From Escherichia phage HK6: a DNA stretch of 64,000 nt. Every line of letters begins with the position of its first letter. The stretch's first letter is position 1. A program made the translations under genes and the position numbers. Shown here piece after piece: positions 9,836 through 19,811 of the stretch. The notes beneath the pieces were generated by a model, which saw only the letters and a program-made list of their open reading frames with translations, did no database searches and was not told where the DNA came from. The stretch lies in sequence record PP724615.1. One strand, 5' to 3'.

Positions 9836-10057
9836 TTATTCAATTACTTTAGCTCTAGCTACTTCTTTTAATAGAATATCTATGGAGGTGCTCAGCTCGT
9901 TATAATTGAATGGTTTATTTGGATTTGAGGTTACAATTTTCCACGCTAGGGTTGTCTTAGGACTTTCTTCCCCTTCCTTACGTGTAATCATATTAGCAGC
10001 ACTCAGTGAAGTACGATGTATTTTAGTTTTACGGCTCAGATGAACGACGTTTCCCAT
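9836..10057 (-). CDS. hypothetical protein, 73 aa
   Basis: ATG 10057 lies 1 nt after the phoH stop (coupling); the longer track ORF would overlap phoH by 68 nt. Confidence 0.45.
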   Translation of the reverse strand: MGNVVHLSRKTKIHRTSLSAANMITRKEGEESPKTTLAWKIVTSNPNKPFNYNELSTSIDILLKEVARAKVIE

Positions 10058-10058
10058 A

Positions 10059-10811
10059 TTACACCTTCCCCATGTCTTTAAAAATATCATAGAATGCTTT
10101 AGACTCAACAGAACGAACGTTATCAATCAATTCGATCATTGAGAATGGGGCATTTTCGTATTTCTCATAGACTTCCATAAGGAGTGCTAGACCTGAGTCA
10201 CCTTTAATGTCTTTCTGAGCTATATCTCCGCAGATAATTAAACGGCAGTCTTGTCCTACACGAGTTAGGAGACAAATCATTGCCTCAACGGAAATATTCT
10301 GAGCTTCATCGACAATTACATAGGAGTTGTTGAAAGTTCTGCCACGAGCATGTTCGATAGCCAAAAATTTAATTTTCTGACGTTCGACATATCCTTTATA
10401 TGCATGATCGCCGATGGCCCATTTCATACCATCAGCTATTGGCTCCAACCAAGGTTCTAGCTTTTCCGCTAGATCACCAGGAAGCATACCAAGAGACTTG
10501 CCTAGAGGTTCATTAGGACGTACGAGAATCACTTGCTCAATATCTGAGTGAATGTCTACGAGTTCCTGAGCTGCAAGAACGGACGGAATAAAGGTTTTAC
10601 CAGTACCCGGCTCACCGATACCCACAGTCACTGTGTTGTTCTTGATCATATTGATATATGATTTTTGCTCGCGGTTTTTACCTACTAGGGATTTAGCAAC
10701 TGGATTAGCGTAATCATTAGAAAAATCAGCCTGAATTACGTTGTTCTCATATTTGTTGCCACGCTTTCTTGAACCATTGCGGTTCTCTCTTTTTTGACGT
10801 GCTTTTCCCAT
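10059..10811 (-). CDS. phoH: PhoH-like ATPase, 250 aa from ATG 10811
   Basis: Walker A GEPGTGKT, Walker B VIVDEAQN; AGGAG 8 nt before ATG 10811. Confidence 0.9.
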   Translation of the reverse strand: MGKARQKRENRNGSRKRGNKYENNVIQADFSNDYANPVAKSLVGKNREQKSYINMIKNNTVTVGIGEPGTGKTFIPSVLAAQELVDIHSDIEQVILVRPNEPLGKSLGMLPGDLAEKLEPWLEPIADGMKWAIGDHAYKGYVERQKIKFLAIEHARGRTFNNSYVIVDEAQNISVEAMICLLTRVGQDCRLIICGDIAQKDIKGDSGLALLMEVYEKYENAPFSMIELIDNVRSVESKAFYDIFKDMGKV

Positions 10812-10990: not shown

Positions 10991-11105
10991 AGATAATCAT
11001 TTTATATCGCGTGCACGAGTGCGTGATTATACAATTTTTAATAGAGATTGGCAAATAAAATTTTTTGACTCAGATCATGTTACAGAACTTTATAGTAAAA
11101 TATTG

Positions 11106-11134
11106 TTGACATCCGCCCTCGAATGAGTTATAAT
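11106..11134 (+). promoter_or_regulatory. consensus sigma70 promoter TTGACA-17-TATAAT (nrdD)
   Basis: -35 11106..11111, -10 11129..11134. Confidence 0.85.
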
Positions 11135-13045: not shown

Positions 13046-13078
13046 AGCCGGGTTGCTAGTCGACCTGGCTTTTATTTT
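13046..13078 (+). terminator. terminator after nrdD
   Basis: AGCCGGGT/ACCTGGCT stem 13046..13070 then TTTTATTTT. Confidence 0.8.
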
Positions 13079-13080
13079 AT

Positions 13081-13109
13081 TTGCTTTCATCCAAAAATTT
13101 ATATATAAT
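13081..13109 (+). promoter_or_regulatory. sigma70 early promoter TTGCTT-17-TATAAT with conserved leader ATAAATTTGAGAGGAG
   Basis: -35 13081..13086, -10 13104..13109. Confidence 0.8.
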
Positions 13110-13137: not shown

Positions 13138-13518
13138 ATGGAATTAAAGCCCTATATAGTTGAATCTACATGTGGTAGTTTCCATCTGGGTGTGGATGAT
13201 ATTGCTGAGGCTGTCTTTGCTGCTACAGGTGATTACTCGCATATAGAGGGTGTTGCATACCCTACCATTATTGGCGATTGGGTGGAAACAAATCTAGATG
13301 TATCGCCTTATAACCCATATTGCTTGTTTGATGAAGACAGAGATGAAGTAAAATGTAATCTTGAATTTGTGTATAATAGAGTGTTAAAAGTATACCAACG
13401 TAGCCCCAATGGGTACGAAGATATTACTTGGAGTATTAAACAGTATCTTAAAGATATATACTCTAGTTTTTCTGACGAAGACCTAGAAATAGTTGCAGTG
13501 GAGTTTAATAATGACTAA
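13138..13518 (+). CDS. strongly acidic hypothetical protein, 126 aa
   Basis: GAGGAG RBS behind a T5-type early promoter; 25 D/E versus 8 K/R by my count. Confidence 0.6.
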   Translation: MELKPYIVESTCGSFHLGVDDIAEAVFAATGDYSHIEGVAYPTIIGDWVETNLDVSPYNPYCLFDEDRDEVKCNLEFVYNRVLKVYQRSPNGYEDITWSIKQYLKDIYSSFSDEDLEIVAVEFNND

Positions 13519-13717
13519 GAATGTGAAACACCTTAAATATCGCTTAATTTACAACGGACGTATGGAAACAGAAGATCTGGCCCAGTTAGCTATTAATTCT
13601 AAGGAGGTTACAGTGCGTGCGCTGGCAATTGAAAAGTTGCGTGCCTCTTATGAAAATCGTGTTATGGAATTAGAGGAGAAACTTTATGGCATTCTCGAAG
13701 CCGATGCTACCAGATAA
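13511..13717 (+). CDS. hypothetical protein, 68 aa
   Basis: GGAG 7 nt before ATG 13511, overlapping upstream stop. Confidence 0.45.
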   Translation: MTKNVKHLKYRLIYNGRMETEDLAQLAINSKEVTVRALAIEKLRASYENRVMELEEKLYGILEADATR

Positions 13718-13907
13718 GGGTTTAAACGCCGCTTTGGAAAACGCATTAATGCAGCACTGGGAAACTGGCTATAAGGATGGTGTTGAATCCTGCGCTACTA
13801 TGCTAGAAGTTATTGCTAATACCTTAATGGAGAAAGGCAATAAAGAATTAGCTGAGCTATTAGATAGTATTGGGCAAAACTTCAGAGAACAGGTGAAAAA
13901 TGCGTAG
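13686..13907 (+). CDS. hypothetical protein, 73 aa
   Basis: GGAGAA RBS, operon context. Confidence 0.5.
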   Translation: MAFSKPMLPDKGLNAALENALMQHWETGYKDGVESCATMLEVIANTLMEKGNKELAELLDSIGQNFREQVKNA

Positions 13908-14736
13908 ATTAATTATTATTAGTGGTGCAGGTTTGAGTGTTGAAAGTGGTGTACGAGCTTTTCGTACTAATACTGCTAGCGGTAAAGCATTGTGGGATGA
14001 TTATGATCTAGAAGAAGTATGTAATATTCATGCCTTTCGTGGTAATTTTTATCATAAAACCCATATGTTTTACAACAAGCGTCGTGAAGAGCTAAAAACT
14101 GTTGAACCCAATCTTGCGCATTTGCGTATTGGTGAATGGTATAAACAATATCCAGGTCAAGTAGTAAACTTGACTACCAACGTTGATGACCTTATTGAGC
14201 GTGCTGGCGTTTCACATAGTGACATTCTGCACATTCACGGATATTTAAAAGAGGTTGTTGTAGCTGATAGCTACAATAGTAGCAATAAACGGATTATTGA
14301 TGTAGGATACAGTTCTATCGATCCGGATGATTATAAATGGGTTAAACCTAATGTAATCTTCTTTGGAGAGCATGCTCCAGCATATGCAGAAATGTACAAT
14401 GTTTTTGATGGTATTACCAGTCAAGATATGATTGTTGTGGTTGGTTGTTCTAACCAAGTAATTAACTTCTACTGGGAATTATTTCCTGTTCTTAATTTGA
14501 CTGCTGCGAAACTTATGGTTGTTAACTACCATGATAGTGCCCTCGCAGCGGAACCGGGCTATCAAGGTATGACTCGTAGTGAGATGTACCAGCTGGAGGA
14601 ACGCGGTATCCCTTACTGGAGTAAAGGTGCGGTAGATGCTTTCAGTGACCCTGATTTTATTGCTCGTGTAGAAGCTCATTTAGAGGGTAGACCTTATGTG
14701 TTGAGAAGCAAGGGAAACAGATATGTCCATAGTTAA
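13900..14736 (+). CDS. Sir2-family NAD-dependent deacylase / ADP-ribosyltransferase homologue, 278 aa
   Basis: GAGLSVESGVRAFR (NAD pocket), TTNVDDL, catalytic HIHG, PNVIFFGE, VVVGCS motifs. Confidence 0.8.
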   Translation: MRRLIIISGAGLSVESGVRAFRTNTASGKALWDDYDLEEVCNIHAFRGNFYHKTHMFYNKRREELKTVEPNLAHLRIGEWYKQYPGQVVNLTTNVDDLIERAGVSHSDILHIHGYLKEVVVADSYNSSNKRIIDVGYSSIDPDDYKWVKPNVIFFGEHAPAYAEMYNVFDGITSQDMIVVVGCSNQVINFYWELFPVLNLTAAKLMVVNYHDSALAAEPGYQGMTRSEMYQLEERGIPYWSKGAVDAFSDPDFIARVEAHLEGRPYVLRSKGNRYVHS

Positions 14737-14905
14737 ATCTGTATATACACATCCCGATGACATATTTGTATGGGCAGATGGTAGTTGGTGCTATCGATGT
14801 GAGTTATGGGAAATGGACTATAAATCCGATGACTATGGCGTCATATATGTTGATACGGTTGAGTATGATACGTTCTTAGAAAGGAACAAAAATGGAAATA
14901 AGTAA
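14723..14905 (+). CDS. hypothetical protein, 60 aa
   Basis: ORF in operon, overlaps both neighbours by a few codons. Confidence 0.45.
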   Translation: MSIVKSVYTHPDDIFVWADGSWCYRCELWEMDYKSDDYGVIYVDTVEYDTFLERNKNGNK

Positions 14906-15398
14906 TACTCCAATTATTTTTCTAGATATTGATGGGGTGCTCAATTCGAGCATCTCCCACCATCATGCACCTGATAATGAAAAGATTTTCTTTGGAAGTG
15001 ACTGGGTTTTCAAACCGCTTCTCAAGGCTTTTCAGGATTTTATTCGTCCTTCTCCGATAATGATTGTTGGAGTATCCTCATGGTTCTCTGTCAGGAATGA
15101 GATGGAAAACGTTCAGATTATGACCGGATTAGGTCTTATCGATCGTTTTCTTGGTACAACGGATTTTACTGGGGGTGGATTATCTAGGGGTAATTCTGTT
15201 CTTCGCTTCGTTGAAAAGCATAAGCTCAAACATTGGTGTGTGCTTGATGATGCTGGTGCTATGATGTATCAGTATCCAACGGTTATAGTCAACGGTAGGA
15301 CTGGGATAAATCTTCAAGATTTAAAAGCTGTTAGCTATATGCTAGAATTTAGCCCAGATCTTGAAATGTGTAAATCCTTACAACAATTTAAGGTGTAA
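14892..15398 (+). CDS. HAD-superfamily phosphatase-like protein, 168 aa
   Basis: motif I IIFLDIDGVLN and late VLDDAG motif; AAGGAA RBS. Confidence 0.6.
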   Translation: MEISNTPIIFLDIDGVLNSSISHHHAPDNEKIFFGSDWVFKPLLKAFQDFIRPSPIMIVGVSSWFSVRNEMENVQIMTGLGLIDRFLGTTDFTGGGLSRGNSVLRFVEKHKLKHWCVLDDAGAMMYQYPTVIVNGRTGINLQDLKAVSYMLEFSPDLEMCKSLQQFKV

Positions 15399-15400
15399 AT

Positions 15401-15829
15401 ATGTTCAATAATGTATTCTCTAAAGAAGCTAACCCAATTTTGGTTAACTTTTGGCGTACTCTCCCAGCTAGCCTGTATAATGAGGCTATTAACTCCTTGA
15501 AAATATGGTGTGAGAATAATGAAATCTCCTTTGCTTTTAAAGATGATATTGATGAGGCCCCCTGTATTGGTTTAATTGTTCAGGTAGAGGAGGGTCTTGA
15601 GGAGATTGTCGGCTGGAAAGAGTTAGATGAAATAGGCTTAGTTTTTGCGTTAAACTATAAGCTGTTTATGCCTGCTAAGCATCGCCTCGTTGTTAACTAT
15701 AAAACTAGTGAATCTCCTGGTTTTCAAGTTAATGAACGTTACGGTTGGTCTTACTTACCGGAAGAAGTAAATGATGGTATCCAAAAACTTCGCCGTTTTG
15801 GTTATCAAATTCCGGGTTTAACTGCTTAA
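15401..15829 (+). CDS. hypothetical protein, 142 aa, paralogue of next gene
   Basis: AAGGTG RBS; shares PCIG..W.EL...GL..ALN..F.P...G(Y/I).(I/V)PGL pattern with 15839..16231. Confidence 0.6.
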   Translation: MFNNVFSKEANPILVNFWRTLPASLYNEAINSLKIWCENNEISFAFKDDIDEAPCIGLIVQVEEGLEEIVGWKELDEIGLVFALNYKLFMPAKHRLVVNYKTSESPGFQVNERYGWSYLPEEVNDGIQKLRRFGYQIPGLTA

Positions 15830-15838
15830 GGAGGAAGA

Positions 15839-16231
15839 ATGGAACAAGTATATTGGCGTCAGATTGACCCTAGTTTGGTGAAGCGTGCGGAAAAGCTGCT
15901 ACAACGTTGGTTAGGGGTAAGGCAAGCCTCCTTCACTTTTCCGGAGCAGCAAACGGATGATCCCTGCATTGGCGTTTTCCTGTCTGGATATGCCGGGGAA
16001 TGGGAGATGGACTGGAATGAATTGTCAGCTATGGGTTTAATTGTTGCCCTAAACTTCTCTATATTCCATCCACGTGGTTTGGCCATATGTCGCGTGCCTG
16101 ATGACGGTTGTTCGCCCCATCTTTTACAGGTGGAAAATGATATTTGGGAGTACACTCCAGATATTCTCGCAGAAGCTAAAGAACAATTAAATCGTGTTGG
16201 GATTTATGTTCCGGGATTAAATGATGAATAA
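15839..16231 (+). CDS. hypothetical protein, 130 aa, paralogue of previous gene
   Basis: AAGGAGGAAG RBS; see paralogue. Confidence 0.6.
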   Translation: MEQVYWRQIDPSLVKRAEKLLQRWLGVRQASFTFPEQQTDDPCIGVFLSGYAGEWEMDWNELSAMGLIVALNFSIFHPRGLAICRVPDDGCSPHLLQVENDIWEYTPDILAEAKEQLNRVGIYVPGLNDE

Positions 16232-16418
16232 GGAATTTTGGAAAATAAAAGGGAAGATTTCTAAGTGGAATACTACAGGGAAAATTAGTAAGTCTCTAGA
16301 GATAGAGATAGCTAGAATGTTTACTGATCCTAATTTTGATATAGAAAAACTAAGCAAAGTAGATGCTAAAAAAGTAGATAAGTATATAGAAGAGATTAGA
16401 AGTATTTTAAGTGTCTAA
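16221..16418 (+). CDS. hypothetical lysine-rich protein, 65 aa
   Basis: last ORF of operon, followed by terminator 16426..16451. Confidence 0.45.
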   Translation: MMNKEFWKIKGKISKWNTTGKISKSLEIEIARMFTDPNFDIEKLSKVDAKKVDKYIEEIRSILSV

Positions 16419-16425
16419 TCCACGT

Positions 16426-16451
16426 AACCGAGTCATTTTGGCTCGGTTTTA
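16426..16451 (+). terminator. terminator closing the Sir2/HAD operon
   Basis: AACCGAG/CTCGGTT stem then TTTTA. Confidence 0.75.
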
Positions 16452-16494
16452 TCCGTACTCAAGACCAATGATAGCACCATCCGGAAAATTTTAC

Positions 16495-16585: not shown

Positions 16586-17021
16586 CCGCGATACGGAACA
16601 GTTAGGCTGCCCCATTAAGGGTTGTTTTAACTGTTACGTGTTAGTTTTTAAACAAATAGTTAATAGAATACTTAGCGATCTACATCCCGTAGGAACCCTG
16701 GTAAGGCCTCGAAGCAACCTAGTGTGAGGTGGTTGTGAAGTGAGACGGGAAGAGTGAAAAACTCTGAGAAGTGATGACGTAAGGTATACTGCATCTAGTA
16801 TGAGCTAGTACATGAAGCATTAGGTGAGCAAATCTGGCTTAGCGGCCATCCTCAAGGATTTGTGCGGTATAGTGAAGCGGCAGTGTAGCGTGAAAGGGGA
16901 AGTTGCCACCCCCCTTCAGTATTTGCGATTAATTGTTGAGAAATTGACAGTAACAGTTGTTCTATTCTTTCTGAATAGTCCTAAAGAAAACTTATTTCAT
17001 TTCCAACACAGGAGTATTGTT
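16586..17021 (+). other. long untranslated, locally structured, G-rich region (candidate ncRNA / regulatory leader / origin)
   Basis: stops in all three forward frames up to 16823, no reverse ORF, about 50% G+C in 16681..16920 by my count, multiple hairpins. Confidence 0.4.
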
Positions 17022-19811
17022 GTGTTCTCAATCCTACAAGGTCATGCAGGATTTCATCGCGACTTAGCCACAGGCATTTGGCGAGAAGTTAAAGCAGAAG
17101 ACTATCTTTTTGCTAAAAGATTTTCCTCAAAGCATCCTGAAGGTAAACCAGCTTCAATGCCCTTCAAGTTTGATGTAATTGATGAAGTTGATCCTCAAAC
17201 CCTAGTAGAAATGCTCCCTCTTATGAGACGTTTAACGTCTGACCCTCATATCGTTGCGGTACGAGGTCGATGTCTTGCACCCAAAAATAACGTGCGGCGT
17301 AAGAAGGGCAACTTTAATGTATCTAACCCAAGTCATATAATTGCATTGGACGTGGATGGTATTGTAGATACAGGTGGTTGTAACAAGTTTGATCTTGTTG
17401 GCATGGCTCGACATATTATTAGGATGTTAAATAGTATTAGTGAGGATATGTTTCCTCTTGATGCAGGGTTTATTGCTCATGCATCGTCTTCGGCTGGGCT
17501 AAAACCAGGTATCCGAATGCACTTAATACTAGAATCTAATGTTAAAGTAACTCAGGGTCAAATCAAATTCTTATTTACATCTATCAACGAAAGTAGTAGA
17601 CAAAAGTATGGCTTTGATATTGCCGACTTAGCTTATTACTCTTCCGTACAGCTCCATTATTTTGCAGATCCGTTATTTACCGATGGTATAGTAGATCCGT
17701 TTAAAGCGGAGGGTGCCTCACGTCTGGTATTTGTTAAGGGTTCTAAAGTAAATTTACCTAATAATCTGGTTGACTATGAAACAACTAGAGGTGAGTTTAA
17801 AGAGGAGTTCTACTCTTTACTCGACCAAATTAAGGGTAAAAAAGCTGCCTCTGATAAAGTAGAGGAAACTATCAGCGAACTAGAAGAAGCTGAGGATGGA
17901 GTGTACCTACGTATTATACCTAAACTCTATCATAGAGCTTTGGAGGATGGTGTTGATTTTGCATGGCTAGAAAAAGAAATCCGTCCAGCCTTATCAGAAT
18001 ATATTGCAACTAAAGATAATAGTCGCAATATTCAAGATTACTTTAATAACGGTCGTAAGCAGGCTCTAAAAGCATTTGTTAATAATTCTAAACGTGATAT
18101 ACCTGATGTTTTAAAAGGTATTCCACTTAAAAAGCTAGAAACTAACTCTCTAGAAACTGATAACTTCTTGAAATTAAATACTGTACCACCAGAAGGTTAT
18201 ATGACTTTTGTAAAAGCAAGTCTAGGTACAGGTAAAACTACGGCGGTTGTGCGTTGGTTAGATTCAGGAGTTATTAAAGGTAATTTCTTAGCAATTACCA
18301 ATACTCGAGCACTGGTATCTTCAAATGCTAAGAAATTTAGTGCAGGACAATATGATAAGTCTGTAGATATGCTTAATTTTAAGCGTGGCGCTATTGACCG
18401 TATGTCCACAACTATACATTCTTTGCATAAGTTCAAGAGTTTTATTGGTCAAATTGATGCAATCTTTATCGATGAATGTGATGCTGTAATGAATGACCTA
18501 TTATTCGCCCCGGTTGTTAAACAACGTCGTGAATGTATTCAGGTTCTTCGGGATATTCTTGCAACTGCAAAAATCATTATATTATCTGATGGGGATATTA
18601 GTGCAGAAACAATTGAAGCATACGGTTCTTTGATTGAGTTTGATAAACCAGTAGCATTTTATAATCATCACCGTAAGATGCTGTCAAAAGCTCATGCTTA
18701 TGAGTTCCCTGACGAATCCAGTATTTGGGTTGCACTTCAGACTTCTCTAGAGATGGGTGAGAAATCTATCCTAGTATCTGACTGTGGTCCAGATGAACTG
18801 AATGAGAAGGGCATGGCGTTGCGTCGTAATACGGGTGCGTTAGTTAAGGAAATCCACTCAAACTCTACGTCTGATGTAGATATTCGACGTATTCTGGATT
18901 ACACAACTAATGAGTTAATTGACCAACAAATTGATTGCTTATTATGTAGCCCATCCGTAACGAGCGGTGTTGACTTTAACTATTTTGATAACGTATTCGT
19001 TATTACTAGGACCAGTAACCAAGCGCCAAACATGCGTTTTCAAGCAATCAGGCGCGACCGTGGCGCTCAGAACATTTATTATTTTATTGATAAATCTACG
19101 AGTGGATTCTCCGCAGGTTCTGAGCAATATAACATTGACGAGGGTTGGCTGGAGTTAGCACAGCAATTATACGCACGTCGCAGAGAGCTGGAATCTAGGA
19201 ACTATACTAGTACTTTACGTTACTATTTGCTTGATCAGGGTGCAACTATTGATATTTTCAGTGAAAGCTGGGGAACTATCGAAGGTGCGGGGAAAGAATA
19301 TACAGAAGAGCGAATCAAAGCCATTTTGTATTCAACCCCTGATTATTGTGCTCCACGCCATGCAGATGCGTATGAAGCTAAACTACTTCTTGTACGCTAT
19401 TATCATCTTGAGTCTATTAAAGATGTAACAGTTGAGCATGTTGAACAATATATCAAGGATAAACCGAATGATCGAGCTGCATTCTTCCATAAGATGCACG
19501 AGATGTTCTGGGAAGATATTAAGAAGTGTTCAAATGTCACTATCAAACCATTCATAGAAGCTCTGAAAGGTAAGAAGAAAGATTTCTTCCTTAAAACAGG
19601 TCAGAGTGCTAACCCAAAATATGCAAGAATGTATCTTGGTATGATGGGTATTGGTAAGGATATGAACACGGAGAATATTGTAGACTGGTACAGAACCTAT
19701 TGTAAAATCGAGTGTATGCCAATCCCATATAAGTTTATGACTGATGAGGAGAAACATATGCATGATGAAGCAATGGCAGAGCTAGGTGCTAGAAATGACA
19801 GTGAAGAATAA
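17022..19811 (+). CDS. replication initiator-type helicase (T5 'replication origin binding protein' position), 929 aa from GTG 17022
   Basis: Walker A SLGTGKTT (18225..18239), DExD-like FIDECD, C-terminal helicase motifs; AGGAG 7 nt before GTG 17022. Confidence 0.8.
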   Translation: MFSILQGHAGFHRDLATGIWREVKAEDYLFAKRFSSKHPEGKPASMPFKFDVIDEVDPQTLVEMLPLMRRLTSDPHIVAVRGRCLAPKNNVRRKKGNFNVSNPSHIIALDVDGIVDTGGCNKFDLVGMARHIIRMLNSISEDMFPLDAGFIAHASSSAGLKPGIRMHLILESNVKVTQGQIKFLFTSINESSRQKYGFDIADLAYYSSVQLHYFADPLFTDGIVDPFKAEGASRLVFVKGSKVNLPNNLVDYETTRGEFKEEFYSLLDQIKGKKAASDKVEETISELEEAEDGVYLRIIPKLYHRALEDGVDFAWLEKEIRPALSEYIATKDNSRNIQDYFNNGRKQALKAFVNNSKRDIPDVLKGIPLKKLETNSLETDNFLKLNTVPPEGYMTFVKASLGTGKTTAVVRWLDSGVIKGNFLAITNTRALVSSNAKKFSAGQYDKSVDMLNFKRGAIDRMSTTIHSLHKFKSFIGQIDAIFIDECDAVMNDLLFAPVVKQRRECIQVLRDILATAKIIILSDGDISAETIEAYGSLIEFDKPVAFYNHHRKMLSKAHAYEFPDESSIWVALQTSLEMGEKSILVSDCGPDELNEKGMALRRNTGALVKEIHSNSTSDVDIRRILDYTTNELIDQQIDCLLCSPSVTSGVDFNYFDNVFVITRTSNQAPNMRFQAIRRDRGAQNIYYFIDKSTSGFSAGSEQYNIDEGWLELAQQLYARRRELESRNYTSTLRYYLLDQGATIDIFSESWGTIEGAGKEYTEERIKAILYSTPDYCAPRHADAYEAKLLLVRYYHLESIKDVTVEHVEQYIKDKPNDRAAFFHKMHEMFWEDIKKCSNVTIKPFIEALKGKKKDFFLKTGQSANPKYARMYLGMMGIGKDMNTENIVDWYRTYCKIECMPIPYKFMTDEEKHMHDEAMAELGARNDSEE

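What the first reader, a model, noticed from the sequence alone, without database searches (positions are those of the whole stretch)
13900..14736. Sir2 homologue without the zinc-ribbon cysteines
The NAD-binding and catalytic motifs are present (GAGLSVESG, HIHG, FFGE). The whole protein contains only two cysteines (EEVCNIH and VVGCSN). The segment between the catalytic His and the FGE motif has none, so the usual CxxC...CxxC zinc module of sirtuins is absent. This points to a divergent sirtuin, possibly an ADP-ribosyltransferase or NADase rather than a deacetylase.
Basis: partly seen in the sequence, partly recalled or inferred. Interest (0 to 1): 0.5.

Follow-up and report, generated by a model that had tools for sequence, protein, structure and literature searches.

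The report
Zinc-less sirtuin gene of T5-like phage
This is the long-annotated Sir2-like early gene of T5-type phages (T5.102): a CobB/SIRT5-like NAD-dependent enzyme that has lost its four zinc-binding cysteines but keeps the rest of its active site, so it is real and conserved, its substrate is untested, and it is not a new kind of thing.

Summary
ORF 13900..14736 (+) encodes a 278-aa Sir2-family protein with GAGLSVESG, HIHG and FFGE. It has two cysteines (C41, C183) and none between the catalytic His and FGE.

The window is a T5-like phage. The gene is the orthologue of T5.102, annotated "Sir2" in the T5 record, present in 231 phage records and under purifying selection (dN/dS about 0.1).

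Only the zinc ligands are gone. The three-stranded ribbon is kept in length and is modelled with high confidence. Zinc loss is clade-wide and travels with TQN(I/V)D becoming TTNVD.

By sequence and fold the protein is closest to the class III deacylases CobB, SIRT5 and Sir2Af1. It is further from SirTM and from defence NADase Sir2s. It keeps the catalytic His, the residues aligned to CobB's acyl pocket, and the CobB/SIRT5 Tyr-x-x-Arg pair.

My best guess (0.45) is a zinc-independent NAD-dependent lysine deacylase. The main rival (0.25) is a published prediction (Iyer et al. 2022) that these phage sirtuins act in RNA-end repair. The adjacent HAD_SAK_2 phosphatase and the RNA-ligase, cREC and kinase neighbours in rV5-like phages support that rival.

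I found no biochemical test. Zinc-less phage Sir2/CobB proteins were already noted in 2016. Interest is low to moderate.

The parts
13081..13109 (+). promoter-like site (TTGCTT, 17 nt spacer, TATAAT) ahead of the operon that contains the sirtuin gene
   Evidence: Read from the sequence. It falls below the scan threshold because the -35 box matches only 3 of 6. The T5 record annotates a promoter at the homologous position, upstream of T5.100.
13138..13907 (+). three small conserved ORFs of unknown function (13138..13518, 13493..13717, 13686..13907) upstream of the sirtuin gene; the second and third each overlap the gene that follows
   Evidence: ORF list. PHROGs 11748, 5236 and 5827, all of unknown function. 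No Pfam hit.
13900..14736 (+). sirtuin gene, orthologue of T5.102; 278 aa
13924..13950 (+). NAD-binding motif GAGLSVESG (residues 9-17), followed by F21 and R22
   Evidence: G9, A10, G11, S13, S16, G17, F21 and R22 are invariant in 62 family members.
14020..14022 (+). Cys41, aligned with CobB Ala76 (an acyl-pocket residue)
   Evidence: HMMER alignment to 1s5p. Residue numbering was checked against the mutants named in PDB titles: A76G, Y92A, I131C/L, V187Y. Invariant in the family. Cys in 111 of 141 wider representatives.
14071..14082 (+). Tyr58-x-x-Arg61, aligned with CobB Tyr92/Arg95
   Evidence: invariant in 62 members.
14173..14187 (+). TTNVD (residues 92-96), the clade's version of the sirtuin TQN(I/V)D motif, with Gln replaced by Thr93
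   Evidence: T93 is invariant. Among wider representatives, T occurs in 33 of 51 zinc-less and 10 of 90 zinc-bearing sequences.
14230..14241 (+). HIHG, with catalytic His113
   Evidence: Aligned with the catalytic HG of CobB. Invariant.
14242..14358 (+). cysteine-free remnant of the zinc ribbon (residues 115-153)
   Evidence: No Cys. Three predicted strands with pLDDT above 90. Ligand positions mapped against zinc-bearing relatives.
14359..14370 (+). FFGE motif (residues 154-157)
   Evidence: F154, F155 and E157 are invariant.
14723..14905 (+). small conserved ORF between the sirtuin and HAD genes, overlapping both
   Evidence: PHROG 5116, unknown function.
14892..15398 (+). capless HAD phosphatase (HAD_SAK_2), the conserved neighbour of the sirtuin in T5-like phages
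15401..16231 (+). two tandem DUF7415 paralogues (15401..15829 and 15839..16231) in the same operon
   Evidence: Pfam PF24187, E 1.6e-34 and 7.3e-32.
16221..16418 (+). last small ORF of the operon
   Evidence: PHROG 29527.
16427..16452 (+). terminator-like hairpin (ACCGAGTC / GGCTCGGT) followed by a T run, closing the operon
   Evidence: Read from the sequence. Not listed by the scan. The T5 record annotates a terminator at the homologous place, after T5.107.

Best explanation
The gene is the T5.102-type gene of a T5-like phage. It sits in the nucleotide-metabolism and replication gene region, in an operon with its own promoter-like and terminator-like sites.

It encodes a class III (CobB/SIRT5-like) sirtuin that has lost the four zinc-ligand cysteines. 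The small three-stranded ribbon remains as a metal-free element.

Most likely it is still an NAD+-dependent lysine deacylase. An acyl-lysine would enter the channel lined by the residues aligned to CobB's acyl pocket (V95, V152, F155, V187). The acyl oxygen would attack C1' of the nicotinamide ribose and release nicotinamide. His113 would then activate the ribose hydroxyl so that the acyl group ends up on ADP-ribose.

The invariant Tyr58-x-x-Arg61 pair, with Cys41 in the place of CobB Ala76, suggests a preference for negatively charged acyl groups of the succinyl or malonyl type. The targets would be host or phage proteins during infection.

What is shown: the gene is real, conserved and under purifying selection; the fold, the motifs and the aligned pocket residues are retained; the zinc ligands are lost across the clade.

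What is inferred: catalytic activity, the acyl-lysine substrate, the acidic-acyl preference, and the time and targets of action.
For: - Sequence: the best solved relatives are E. coli CobB (1s5p, E 1.8e-17), Sir2Af1 and SIRT5. Pfam matches SIR2 only.
- Invariant in 62 family members: the GAGxS, SG, FR, N94, D96, H113-G114, F155, E157, G182/S184 and N209 positions, and also Y58, R61, V95 and V187. V152 is at least 90% conserved.
- Pocket mapping: C41, Y58, R61, V95 and V152 align to CobB A76, Y92, R95, I131 and V187. Those CobB positions are the ones mutated in the acyl-specificity variants named in PDB titles.
- dN/dS is 0.095.
- The proteins are acidic (pI 4.7-6.4), like CobB (5.4). That is not what one usually expects of an RNA-binding enzyme.
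- No macrodomain, HerA, TIR or other defence partner lies nearby, and PADLOC finds nothing.
- From established knowledge, not tested here: SIRT5 Ala86/Tyr102/Arg105 and CobB Tyr92/Arg95 recognise the carboxylate of succinyl- or malonyl-lysine.
Against: - I found no biochemical data for any member in four literature searches aimed at that question.
- The zinc module is reported as required for deacetylation in canonical sirtuins (PMC12700824).
- The near-universal Gln of TQN(I/V)D is Thr in this clade, and the Pro of the CobB V-Y-P substrate loop is Asn189.
- The protein fails every NCBIfam CobB cut-off, for example 91 bits against 320.
- Gene context is not explained by a plain deacylase. HAD_SAK_2 is adjacent in 25 of 25 T5-like loci. 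RNA ligase 1, cREC, an AAA_33 kinase, a metallophosphatase and an ATP-ligase flank the orthologue in rV5-like phages.
- The pocket argument rests on alignment only. I could not inspect model coordinates.
Confidence: 0.45

Rival explanations
1. RNA-end repair enzyme, as predicted by Iyer, Burroughs, Anantharaman and Aravind (2022). The sirtuin would use NAD+ as Tpt1/KptA does. An RNA 2'-phosphate attacks C1'' of NAD+ and nicotinamide leaves. The ADP-ribose 2''-OH, activated through His113, then takes the phosphate away as ADP-ribose 1''-2'' cyclic phosphate. The adjacent capless HAD phosphatase would either prepare the RNA end or process the ADP-ribose phosphate product.
For: - PMC9503650 names the T5-like phage SP15 as the type-3 neighbourhood (sirtuin plus 'Swiss-army-knife' HAD).
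- I reproduced the contexts independently. HAD_SAK_2 is next to the gene here, in 25 of 25 T5-like loci, and in Erwinia phage KEY with the gene order swapped.
- In Raoultella phage Ro1 the order is Metallophos ... RNA_lig_T4_1, cREC, AAA_33 kinase, SIR2, ATP-ligase, with abutting genes. The same set recurs in 5-6 lineages.
- 12 of 20 zinc-less lineages, against 0 of 7 zinc-bearing lineages, have such a neighbour within 6 kb.
- Zinc loss, the Gln-to-Thr change and this context travel together in one clade.
- The two-step chemistry parallels sirtuin chemistry (inference).
Against: - The residues aligned to CobB's acyl pocket stay invariant. If they form the narrow lysine channel seen in canonical sirtuins, an RNA-borne phosphate would fit poorly (inference).
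- The proteins are acidic.
- This window has no RNA ligase, cREC, kinase or tRNA gene, so a T5-like phage would lack the rest of the pathway.
- Two T5-like lineages have the sirtuin without the HAD.
- Homologues of the HAD in rV5-like contigs sit next to a Pribosyl_synth plus NAPRTase pair with no sirtuin within 7 kb. The HAD may therefore be tied to NAD/ADP-ribose metabolism instead.
- The lineage counts are not phylogenetically independent. One of the two search patterns used to fetch the loci contained TTNVD, and the neighbour HMMs were built from zinc-less contexts.
- The idea is untested experimentally.
Confidence: 0.25
2. Loss of the zinc module has turned the enzyme into a protein ADP-ribosyltransferase or a plain NAD+ glycohydrolase, used to modify host proteins or to lower host NAD+.
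For: - All NAD-binding residues are kept.
- The T5 record's own note lists 'ADP-ribosylase' among possible activities.
- Some His-containing sirtuins have ADP-ribosyltransferase activity (PMC8120803).
- The clade-specific invariant Cys41 and Thr93 could alter the chemistry.
Against: - SirTM keeps zinc, replaces the catalytic His by Gln, and is paired with a macrodomain. None of these applies here.
- A free NADase has no need for an invariant Tyr/Arg pair or for conserved acyl-pocket residues.
- Relatives in rV5-like phages lie near genes whose Pfam families (Pribosyl_synth, NAPRTase) are the same type as NAD-regenerating enzymes. Phages are known to rebuild NAD+, not destroy it (PMC13464706).
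Confidence: 0.12
3. The sirtuin and the HAD act together on small NAD/ADP-ribose-derived molecules, for example by clearing or recycling ADP-ribose phosphates or defence signals. They would not act on proteins or RNA.
For: - The HAD is linked to the sirtuin in T5-like phages and to a Pribosyl_synth plus NAPRTase pair in rV5-like contigs. By Pfam family that pair resembles the NARP1 enzymes ADPS and NAMAT (PMC13464706).
- An NAPRTase-family gene lies within 6 kb of the sirtuin in 3 lineages.
- A NADAR gene lies 6 kb from the sirtuin in phage Ro1.
Against: - The HAD is capless, a form usually associated with macromolecular substrates (established knowledge).
- Assigning the pair to NARP1 rests on Pfam families only.
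- No known sirtuin acts on such small acceptors, apart from the old CobB role in cobalamin synthesis.
Confidence: 0.08

Closest known systems
E. coli CobB (class III sirtuin; PDB 1s5p, 6rxj)
   Same: Best sequence match (E 1.8e-17) and best Foldseek match (target-normalised TM 0.83). The same NAD motifs, the catalytic HG, FGE, Tyr-x-x-Arg (Y92/R95 aligned to Y58/R61), and acyl-pocket residues I131 and V187 aligned to V95 and V152. A similarly acidic pI.
   Different: About 25% identity, and far below the NCBIfam CobB cut-offs. CobB has zinc-ribbon cysteines (C..CxCC) and this protein has none. Other changes are Ala76 to Cys41, Gln (TQNID) to Thr93, V-Y-P to V-I-N, and an extra C-terminal helical extension (residues about 215-278).
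Human SIRT5 (desuccinylase/demalonylase; PDB 3riy)
   Same: Class III fold (Foldseek E about 1e-13). The Tyr/Arg anion-recognition pair is conserved. That equivalence comes from established knowledge and runs through the CobB alignment.
   Different: SIRT5 binds zinc through four Cys and has Ala, not Cys, at the pocket position, and Gln140 where the phage protein has Thr93.
Sir2/CobB of KVP40-like Vibrio phages (phiSt2, phiGrn1)
   Same: Phage-encoded CobB-like sirtuins already reported to lack the zinc ligand in the small domain. T5 is listed as carrying a homologue (PMC5107563).
   Different: That work was modelling only. It proposed salt bridges in place of zinc and activation of acetyl-CoA synthetase. 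I did not compare those sequences directly with this one.
RNA-repair-associated phage sirtuin clade of Iyer et al. 2022
   Same: This gene fits their type-3 neighbourhood (T5-like phage SP15: sirtuin plus HAD 'Swiss-army-knife' phosphatase) (PMC9503650).
   Different: The clade is defined by context and phylogeny, not by a tested activity. My residue analysis (retained pocket residues, acidic protein) is in tension with an RNA substrate.
SirTM (ADP-ribosylating sirtuins of Streptococcus and Staphylococcus; PDB 5a3a)
   Different: [quoted passage not shown] None of these holds here.
Defence-associated Sir2 NADases (ThsA, SIR2-HerA, PsSIR2, Avs5)
   Same: Rossmann-type NAD-binding core and no zinc (PMC12700824).
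Tpt1/KptA RNA 2'-phosphotransferase
   Same: Only the proposed chemistry is shared: an oxyanion attacks NAD+ C1'', then the ribose 2''-OH attacks (inference; PMC9503650).
   Different: An unrelated fold (ADP-ribosyltransferase superfamily). There is no homology, so it is a 'works like' candidate only.

Membership tests
Sir2 family (Pfam PF02146, canonical sirtuins) | Profile match above the curated cut-off | tested here: met
   88.1 bits against 24, E 9e-25, covering profile positions 1-178 of 180.
Sir2 family (Pfam PF02146, canonical sirtuins) | NAD-binding motifs GAGxS, SG..FR, (T)QN(I/V)D, G(T)S and N, plus the catalytic HG and FGE | tested here: met
   All are present and invariant in the family, except that Gln is replaced by Thr93 and GTS by GCS.
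Sir2 family (Pfam PF02146, canonical sirtuins) | Four-cysteine zinc ribbon between the catalytic His and FGE | tested here: not met
   No Cys in residues 115-153. Among the query and its 120 close homologues, 69 have 0 Cys there, 48 have 1 and 4 have 2, and none has CxxC...CxxC. The ribbon strands themselves are retained.
Class III sirtuins (CobB/SIRT5 type) | Closest in sequence and fold to class III members | tested here: met
   The top hits are CobB, Sir2Af1 and SIRT5 and Sir2Af1 and PfSir2A.
Class III sirtuins (CobB/SIRT5 type) | Tyr-x-x-Arg pair that binds acidic acyl groups | tested here: met
   Y58 and R61 align with CobB Y92 and R95 and are invariant.
Class III sirtuins (CobB/SIRT5 type) | NCBIfam CobB equivalog score | tested here: not met
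   91 bits against a cut-off of 320 (NF040867) and 101 against 243 (NF001753). It is not an orthologue of cellular CobB.
Class III sirtuins (CobB/SIRT5 type) | NAD-dependent deacylase activity | not testable with these tools
   Needs an enzyme assay. No published assay was found.
SirTM (class M ADP-ribosylating sirtuins) | Catalytic His replaced by Gln (QG-R motif) | tested here: not met
   His113 is kept and invariant. Definition taken from PMC8120803.
SirTM (class M ADP-ribosylating sirtuins) | Operon with a macrodomain hydrolase | tested here: not met
   No macrodomain among the eight other ORFs of the operon.
Defence-associated Sir2 NADases (SIR2_2; ThsA, DSR, SIR2-HerA) | Match to defence-system profiles, and partner genes or domains (SLOG, HerA, TIR, STAND) | tested here: not met
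RNA-repair-associated phage sirtuins (Iyer et al. 2022, type 3) | Proteobacterial phage sirtuin next to a HAD 'Swiss-army-knife' phosphatase | tested here: met
   The HAD_SAK_2 gene starts 156 nt after the sirtuin gene's stop codon. Found in 25 of 25 T5-like loci. Paper.
RNA-repair-associated phage sirtuins (Iyer et al. 2022, type 3) | Tpt1-like removal of RNA 2'-phosphate | not testable with these tools
   A prediction only. Indirect evidence is mixed (see the rival explanations).

The most novel reading that the evidence does not exclude
The zinc-less, TTNVD-type phage sirtuins (the T5.102 family) are not protein deacylases. They would be nucleic-acid enzymes that use NAD+ to take a 2'-phosphate off damaged or newly ligated RNA, by analogy with Tpt1, working with the adjacent capless HAD phosphatase. 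That would make them the first sirtuins shown to act on RNA and a new arm of phage counter-defence against RNA-cleaving immunity.
Probability: 0.22. Interest if true: 0.8.

Novelty: already known. Interest (0 to 1): 0.3.

Why it matters
As a sequence feature this adds little. The gene carries a Sir2 annotation in the T5 record, zinc-less phage Sir2/CobB proteins were described in 2016, and a specific function for the clade was predicted in 2022.

What remains open is the biochemistry. I found no tested phage sirtuin, although the family is widespread. phmmer finds 2,942 hits among the cluster representatives, and the gene occurs in T5-like and rV5-like phages that are used in therapy and biocontrol.

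If the enzyme is a zinc-free deacylase, it shows that the sirtuin ribbon can do without metal, and that phages reshape host protein acylation. If it acts on RNA ends, it extends sirtuin chemistry to nucleic acids. Either result is reachable with simple assays on a small soluble protein.

Tried and rejected
- PADLOC scan for defence Sir2 profiles: no hit.
- NCBIfam: only sub-threshold CobB models.
- Domain fusions in 10 longer relatives, as Rosetta-stone evidence: only WG and RHS repeats or nothing, so uninformative.
- tRNA scan of the window: none.
- tBLASTn of the window for RNA ligase 1, cREC, AAA_33 kinase, metallophosphatase, ATP-ligase, MazG and NAPRTase: none. This weakens a complete RNA-repair pathway in this phage.
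- PDB sequence search with the HAD: no hit. NCBIfam for the HAD and small ORFs: nothing meaningful.
- I tested whether the ORF next to PRPP synthetase in phage Ro1 is a HAD homologue. It is not.
- The first dN/dS attempt failed because ORF starts were out of register. I redid it on a codon alignment.
- Four literature searches for any experimental work on T5 or phage sirtuins returned only annotations and two computational papers.
- A search for biochemically characterised zinc-less canonical sirtuins found only in-silico reports.
I therefore could not examine pocket geometry, channel width or surface electrostatics.
- I considered and rejected a pseudogene or inactive relic, because dN/dS is 0.095 and every catalytic residue is invariant.
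Full report
**1. The observation**

ORF 13900..14736 on the + strand encodes 278 residues. It starts at an ATG with an AGGTG Shine-Dalgarno-like sequence a few bases upstream, and it overlaps the stop of the preceding small ORF. There are exactly two cysteines, and none lies between His113 and Phe154.

**2. The gene is real and well known**

- Pfam gives PF02146 (SIR2) at E 9e-25, over almost the whole profile.
- PHROGs gives family 2162, "Sir2 (NAD-dependent deacetylase)", at 1.2e-119.
- The DNA is 97.6% identical to T5-like phages. 231 phage records carry it, mostly from Salmonella and Escherichia hosts.
- The neighbours are the class I ribonucleotide reductase large subunit, PhoH, NrdD and the replication origin-binding protein. 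The window is therefore a Tequintavirus-type genome.
- In the RefSeq T5 record the orthologue is T5.102, annotated "Sir2 (NAD-dependent deacetylase)". It lies in a unit T5.100 to T5.107 with an annotated promoter and terminator.
- The same signals can be read in the window: TTGCTT-17-TATAAT at 13081..13109 and a hairpin with a T run at 16427..16452.
- Across 25 T5-like loci, dN is 0.029 and dS is 0.309, a ratio of 0.095. The protein is under strong purifying selection.

**3. What exactly is missing**

Among the query and its 120 close homologues (50-96% identity), the His-to-FGE segment has 0 Cys in 69, 1 in 48 and 2 in 4. None has a CxxC...CxxC arrangement. The module itself is not deleted:

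- The segment is 40 residues, against about 42 in CobB.
- An AlphaFold2 model built on a 62-sequence alignment (pLDDT 89.8, pTM 0.88) places three strands at 114-122, 131-134 and 147-152, with block pLDDT of 91-97.
- Against zinc-bearing relatives the flanking elements (GxLxE, DxGY, KPNVxFFGE) align. The first CxxC pair corresponds to V121 and N129. The second pair falls in the DPDDY loop.

"Zinc ligands lost, ribbon kept" is a more accurate description than "zinc module absent".

**4. Where the zinc-less state sits in the family**

A full scan of 1.84 billion cluster representatives gave 2,942 hits. Among the 141 full-length sequences in the best 150, 90 have three or more Cys in the segment and 51 have two or fewer.

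- Zinc loss goes together with a change in the TQN(I/V)D motif. Thr replaces Gln in 33 of 51 zinc-less sequences but in only 10 of 90 zinc-bearing ones.
- A neighbour-joining tree built without the ribbon columns places the T5 protein in a clade of 35 representatives. Of these, 32 are zinc-less and 28 have Thr. At least nine changes of zinc state are needed over the whole tree.
- Zinc-less CobB-like sirtuins also occur in cells, for example Helicobacter cetorum WP_104747787.

Loss of the ligands is therefore recurrent and not peculiar to this gene.

**5. What it resembles**

| Comparison | Result |
|---|---|
| Best solved relative by sequence | E. coli CobB, E 1.8e-17; then Sir2Af1/Af2 and SIRT5 |
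| Foldseek against PDB | CobB first (E 4e-17, target TM 0.83), then Sir2Af1, SIRT5, Sir2Tm |
| PADLOC | no family |

It places the protein with the deacylases.

**6. The active site**

Invariant in 62 family members are G9, A10, G11, S13, S16, G17, F21, R22, N94, D96, H113, G114, F155, E157, G182, S184 and N209. These are the canonical NAD-binding and catalytic positions.

The HMMER alignment to 1s5p gives these equivalences. I checked the numbering against the residues named in PDB titles of engineered CobB acyl-specificity variants: A76G, Y92A, I131C/L and V187Y.

| CobB residue | T5-like residue |
|---|---|
| A76 | C41 |
| Y92 | Y58 |
| R95 | R61 |
| I131 | V95 |
| V187 | V152 |
| F190 | F155 |
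| V219-Y220-P221 | V187-I188-N189 |

C41, Y58, R61, V95, F155 and V187 are invariant in the phage family, and V152 is at least 90% conserved.

From established knowledge, CobB Y92/R95 and SIRT5 Y102/R105, with Ala86, bind the carboxylate of succinyl- or malonyl-lysine. The phage protein thus keeps a SIRT5/CobB-type pocket. Its clade-specific changes are Ala to Cys41, Gln to Thr93 and Pro to Asn189. The proteins are acidic (pI 4.7-6.4 across 27 lineages), like CobB at 5.4.

**7. Gene context**

I fetched 80 phage loci with the family alignment, called and clustered their ORFs, and annotated the recurrent neighbours.

- In T5-like loci the HAD is adjacent in 25 of 25. In Erwinia phage KEY it is adjacent with the order reversed.
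- In rV5/Mydo-like phages the orthologue (60-64% identical) lies in a tight run: metallophosphatase ... RNA ligase 1, cREC, AAA_33 kinase, SIR2, ATP-dependent ligase ... MazG.
- Twelve of 20 zinc-less lineages have at least one such neighbour within 6 kb. None of 7 zinc-bearing lineages does.

This reproduces a published analysis. [quoted passage not shown] They name the T5-like phage SP15 for the sirtuin-plus-HAD arrangement, and they propose a KptA/Tpt1-like removal of RNA 2'-phosphates.

Several caveats apply:

- The lineages are not independent.
- One of the two retrieval patterns contained TTNVD.
- The neighbour HMMs were built from zinc-less contexts.
- Two T5-like lineages have no HAD.
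- This window has no RNA ligase, cREC, kinase or tRNA gene.
- HAD homologues in two rV5-like contigs sit directly upstream of a Pribosyl_synth plus NAPRTase pair, with no sirtuin within 7 kb. By Pfam family that pair resembles the ADP-ribose-recycling NARP1 enzymes (PMC13464706).

**8. Weighing the mechanisms**

Three readings share the first chemical step: NAD+ binds and nicotinamide is released with the help of His113. All the needed residues are present, so an active NAD-consuming enzyme is very likely.

They differ in the acceptor. The residue evidence favours an acyl-lysine, probably an acidic one: the invariant residues aligned to CobB's acyl pocket, the Tyr/Arg pair, the acidic protein, and the closest fold matches. 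The context evidence favours an RNA-end or ADP-ribose-phosphate pathway.

I give most weight to the residue evidence, for two reasons. If these conserved residues form the narrow lysine channel of canonical sirtuins, they are hard to reconcile with a polymer-borne phosphate. And sirtuins known to have changed acceptor (SirTM, defence NADases) changed these very residues.

| Reading | Confidence |
|---|---|
| Zinc-independent deacylase | 0.45 |
| RNA-repair, Tpt1-like | 0.25 |
| Small-molecule NAD/ADP-ribose processing with the HAD | 0.08 |
| Other | remainder |

One inference could reconcile context and residues, and I flag it as speculation. The RNA and DNA ligases next to the rV5-like orthologues work through a catalytic lysine, so a deacylase could keep such lysines free. 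This would parallel CobB reactivating acetyl-CoA synthetase.

**9.

"Divergent sirtuin" is right. [quoted passage not shown] does not follow from zinc loss:

- SirTM retains zinc and lacks the catalytic His (PMC8120803).
- The defence NADases lack the whole ribbon and belong to another Pfam family (PMC12700824).
- Zinc-less CobB-type sirtuins exist in bacteria.

A review statement that the zinc module is required for deacetylation in canonical sirtuins does leave room for doubt. The verdict is "partly supported".

**10. Novelty**

- The gene is annotated in T5 and in most related records.
- The absence of the zinc ligand in phage Sir2/CobB proteins was reported for KVP40-like Vibrio phages in 2016, with T5 listed as carrying a homologue (PMC5107563).
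- A function for the clade was predicted in 2022 (PMC9503650).
- I found no experimental test in four searches aimed at that question.

I rate it "already known" as a feature, with an open and easily testable biochemical question. Interest is 0.3.

**11. Limits**

I could not read model coordinates. The statements about the pocket and the lysine channel rest on alignment to CobB and on literature knowledge, not on measured geometry. The SIRT5 equivalences and the role of the TQN(I/V)D glutamine come from my own knowledge, not from a tool result.

Noticed in passing
window 14892..15398; L085 4089..4595 (T5.105); L001 6993..7499: The HAD_SAK_2 phosphatase is labelled 'Sir2 (NAD-dependent deacetylase)' in the RefSeq T5 record and in newer T5-like records. 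PHROG 18062 carries that name although it matches only the C-terminal half of this HAD (residues 77-168, E 6e-58). This looks like an annotation error that is being propagated.
   Followed up: yes
L086 7001..10217; L087 7001..10569: In two 147-152 kb rV5-like contigs the HAD_SAK_2 homologue (37-39% identical) sits immediately upstream of a Pribosyl_synth plus NAPRTase gene pair. By Pfam family that pair resembles the ADP-ribose-recycling NARP1 enzymes (ADPS plus NAMAT). No sirtuin lies within 7 kb. This hints that the HAD is tied to NAD/ADP-ribose metabolism and not to RNA ends.
   Followed up: partly
window 13900..14736 compared with L048 5896..6843: Mosaic divergence. Against one group of T5-like phages, PhoH is 98%, the HAD 91% and the origin-binding protein 90% identical, but the sirtuin is only 51% and NrdD 60%. 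The window's sirtuin is closer (about 64%) to that of the more distant Erwinia phage KEY. This suggests allele exchange of the sirtuin gene between phage groups (also 231 against 402-417 megablast records).
   Followed up: partly
window 15401..15829 and 15839..16231: Two tandem paralogues of DUF7415 (E 1.6e-34 and 7.3e-32) in the same operon. They are conserved next to the sirtuin in T5-like lineages, including those without the HAD.
   Followed up: no
window 11026..11134: Back-to-back strong sigma-70-type promoters. A perfect TTGACA-17-TATAAT at 11106..11134 (+) precedes nrdD. An 11 of 12 match at 11054..11026 (-) faces phoH. A 10-bp-stem terminator-like hairpin at 13046..13070 follows nrdD.
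   Followed up: no
window residues C41 (14020..14022) and T93 (14176..14178) of the sirtuin: Cys41 is invariant in the phage family and present in 111 of 141 wider representatives, whether or not they bind zinc. It sits where CobB has the acyl-pocket Ala76. Thr93 replaces the near-universal Gln of TQN(I/V)D and co-varies with zinc loss. Neither change has an explanation.
   Followed up: partly
window 16824..19811: The longest ORF for the replication origin-binding/helicase protein starts at a GTG and gives 995 aa. Related records annotate a product of about 928 aa (L001 9459..12245; L004 9553..12339). The true start is probably downstream of 16824.
   Followed up: no
window 9836..10126; L001 1937..2158: The small ORF between the ribonucleotide reductase large subunit and phoH is labelled 'tail length tape measure protein' in phage MM-1, which is implausible for its size and place. 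The counterpart in Erwinia phage KEY carries DUF7430.
   Followed up: no
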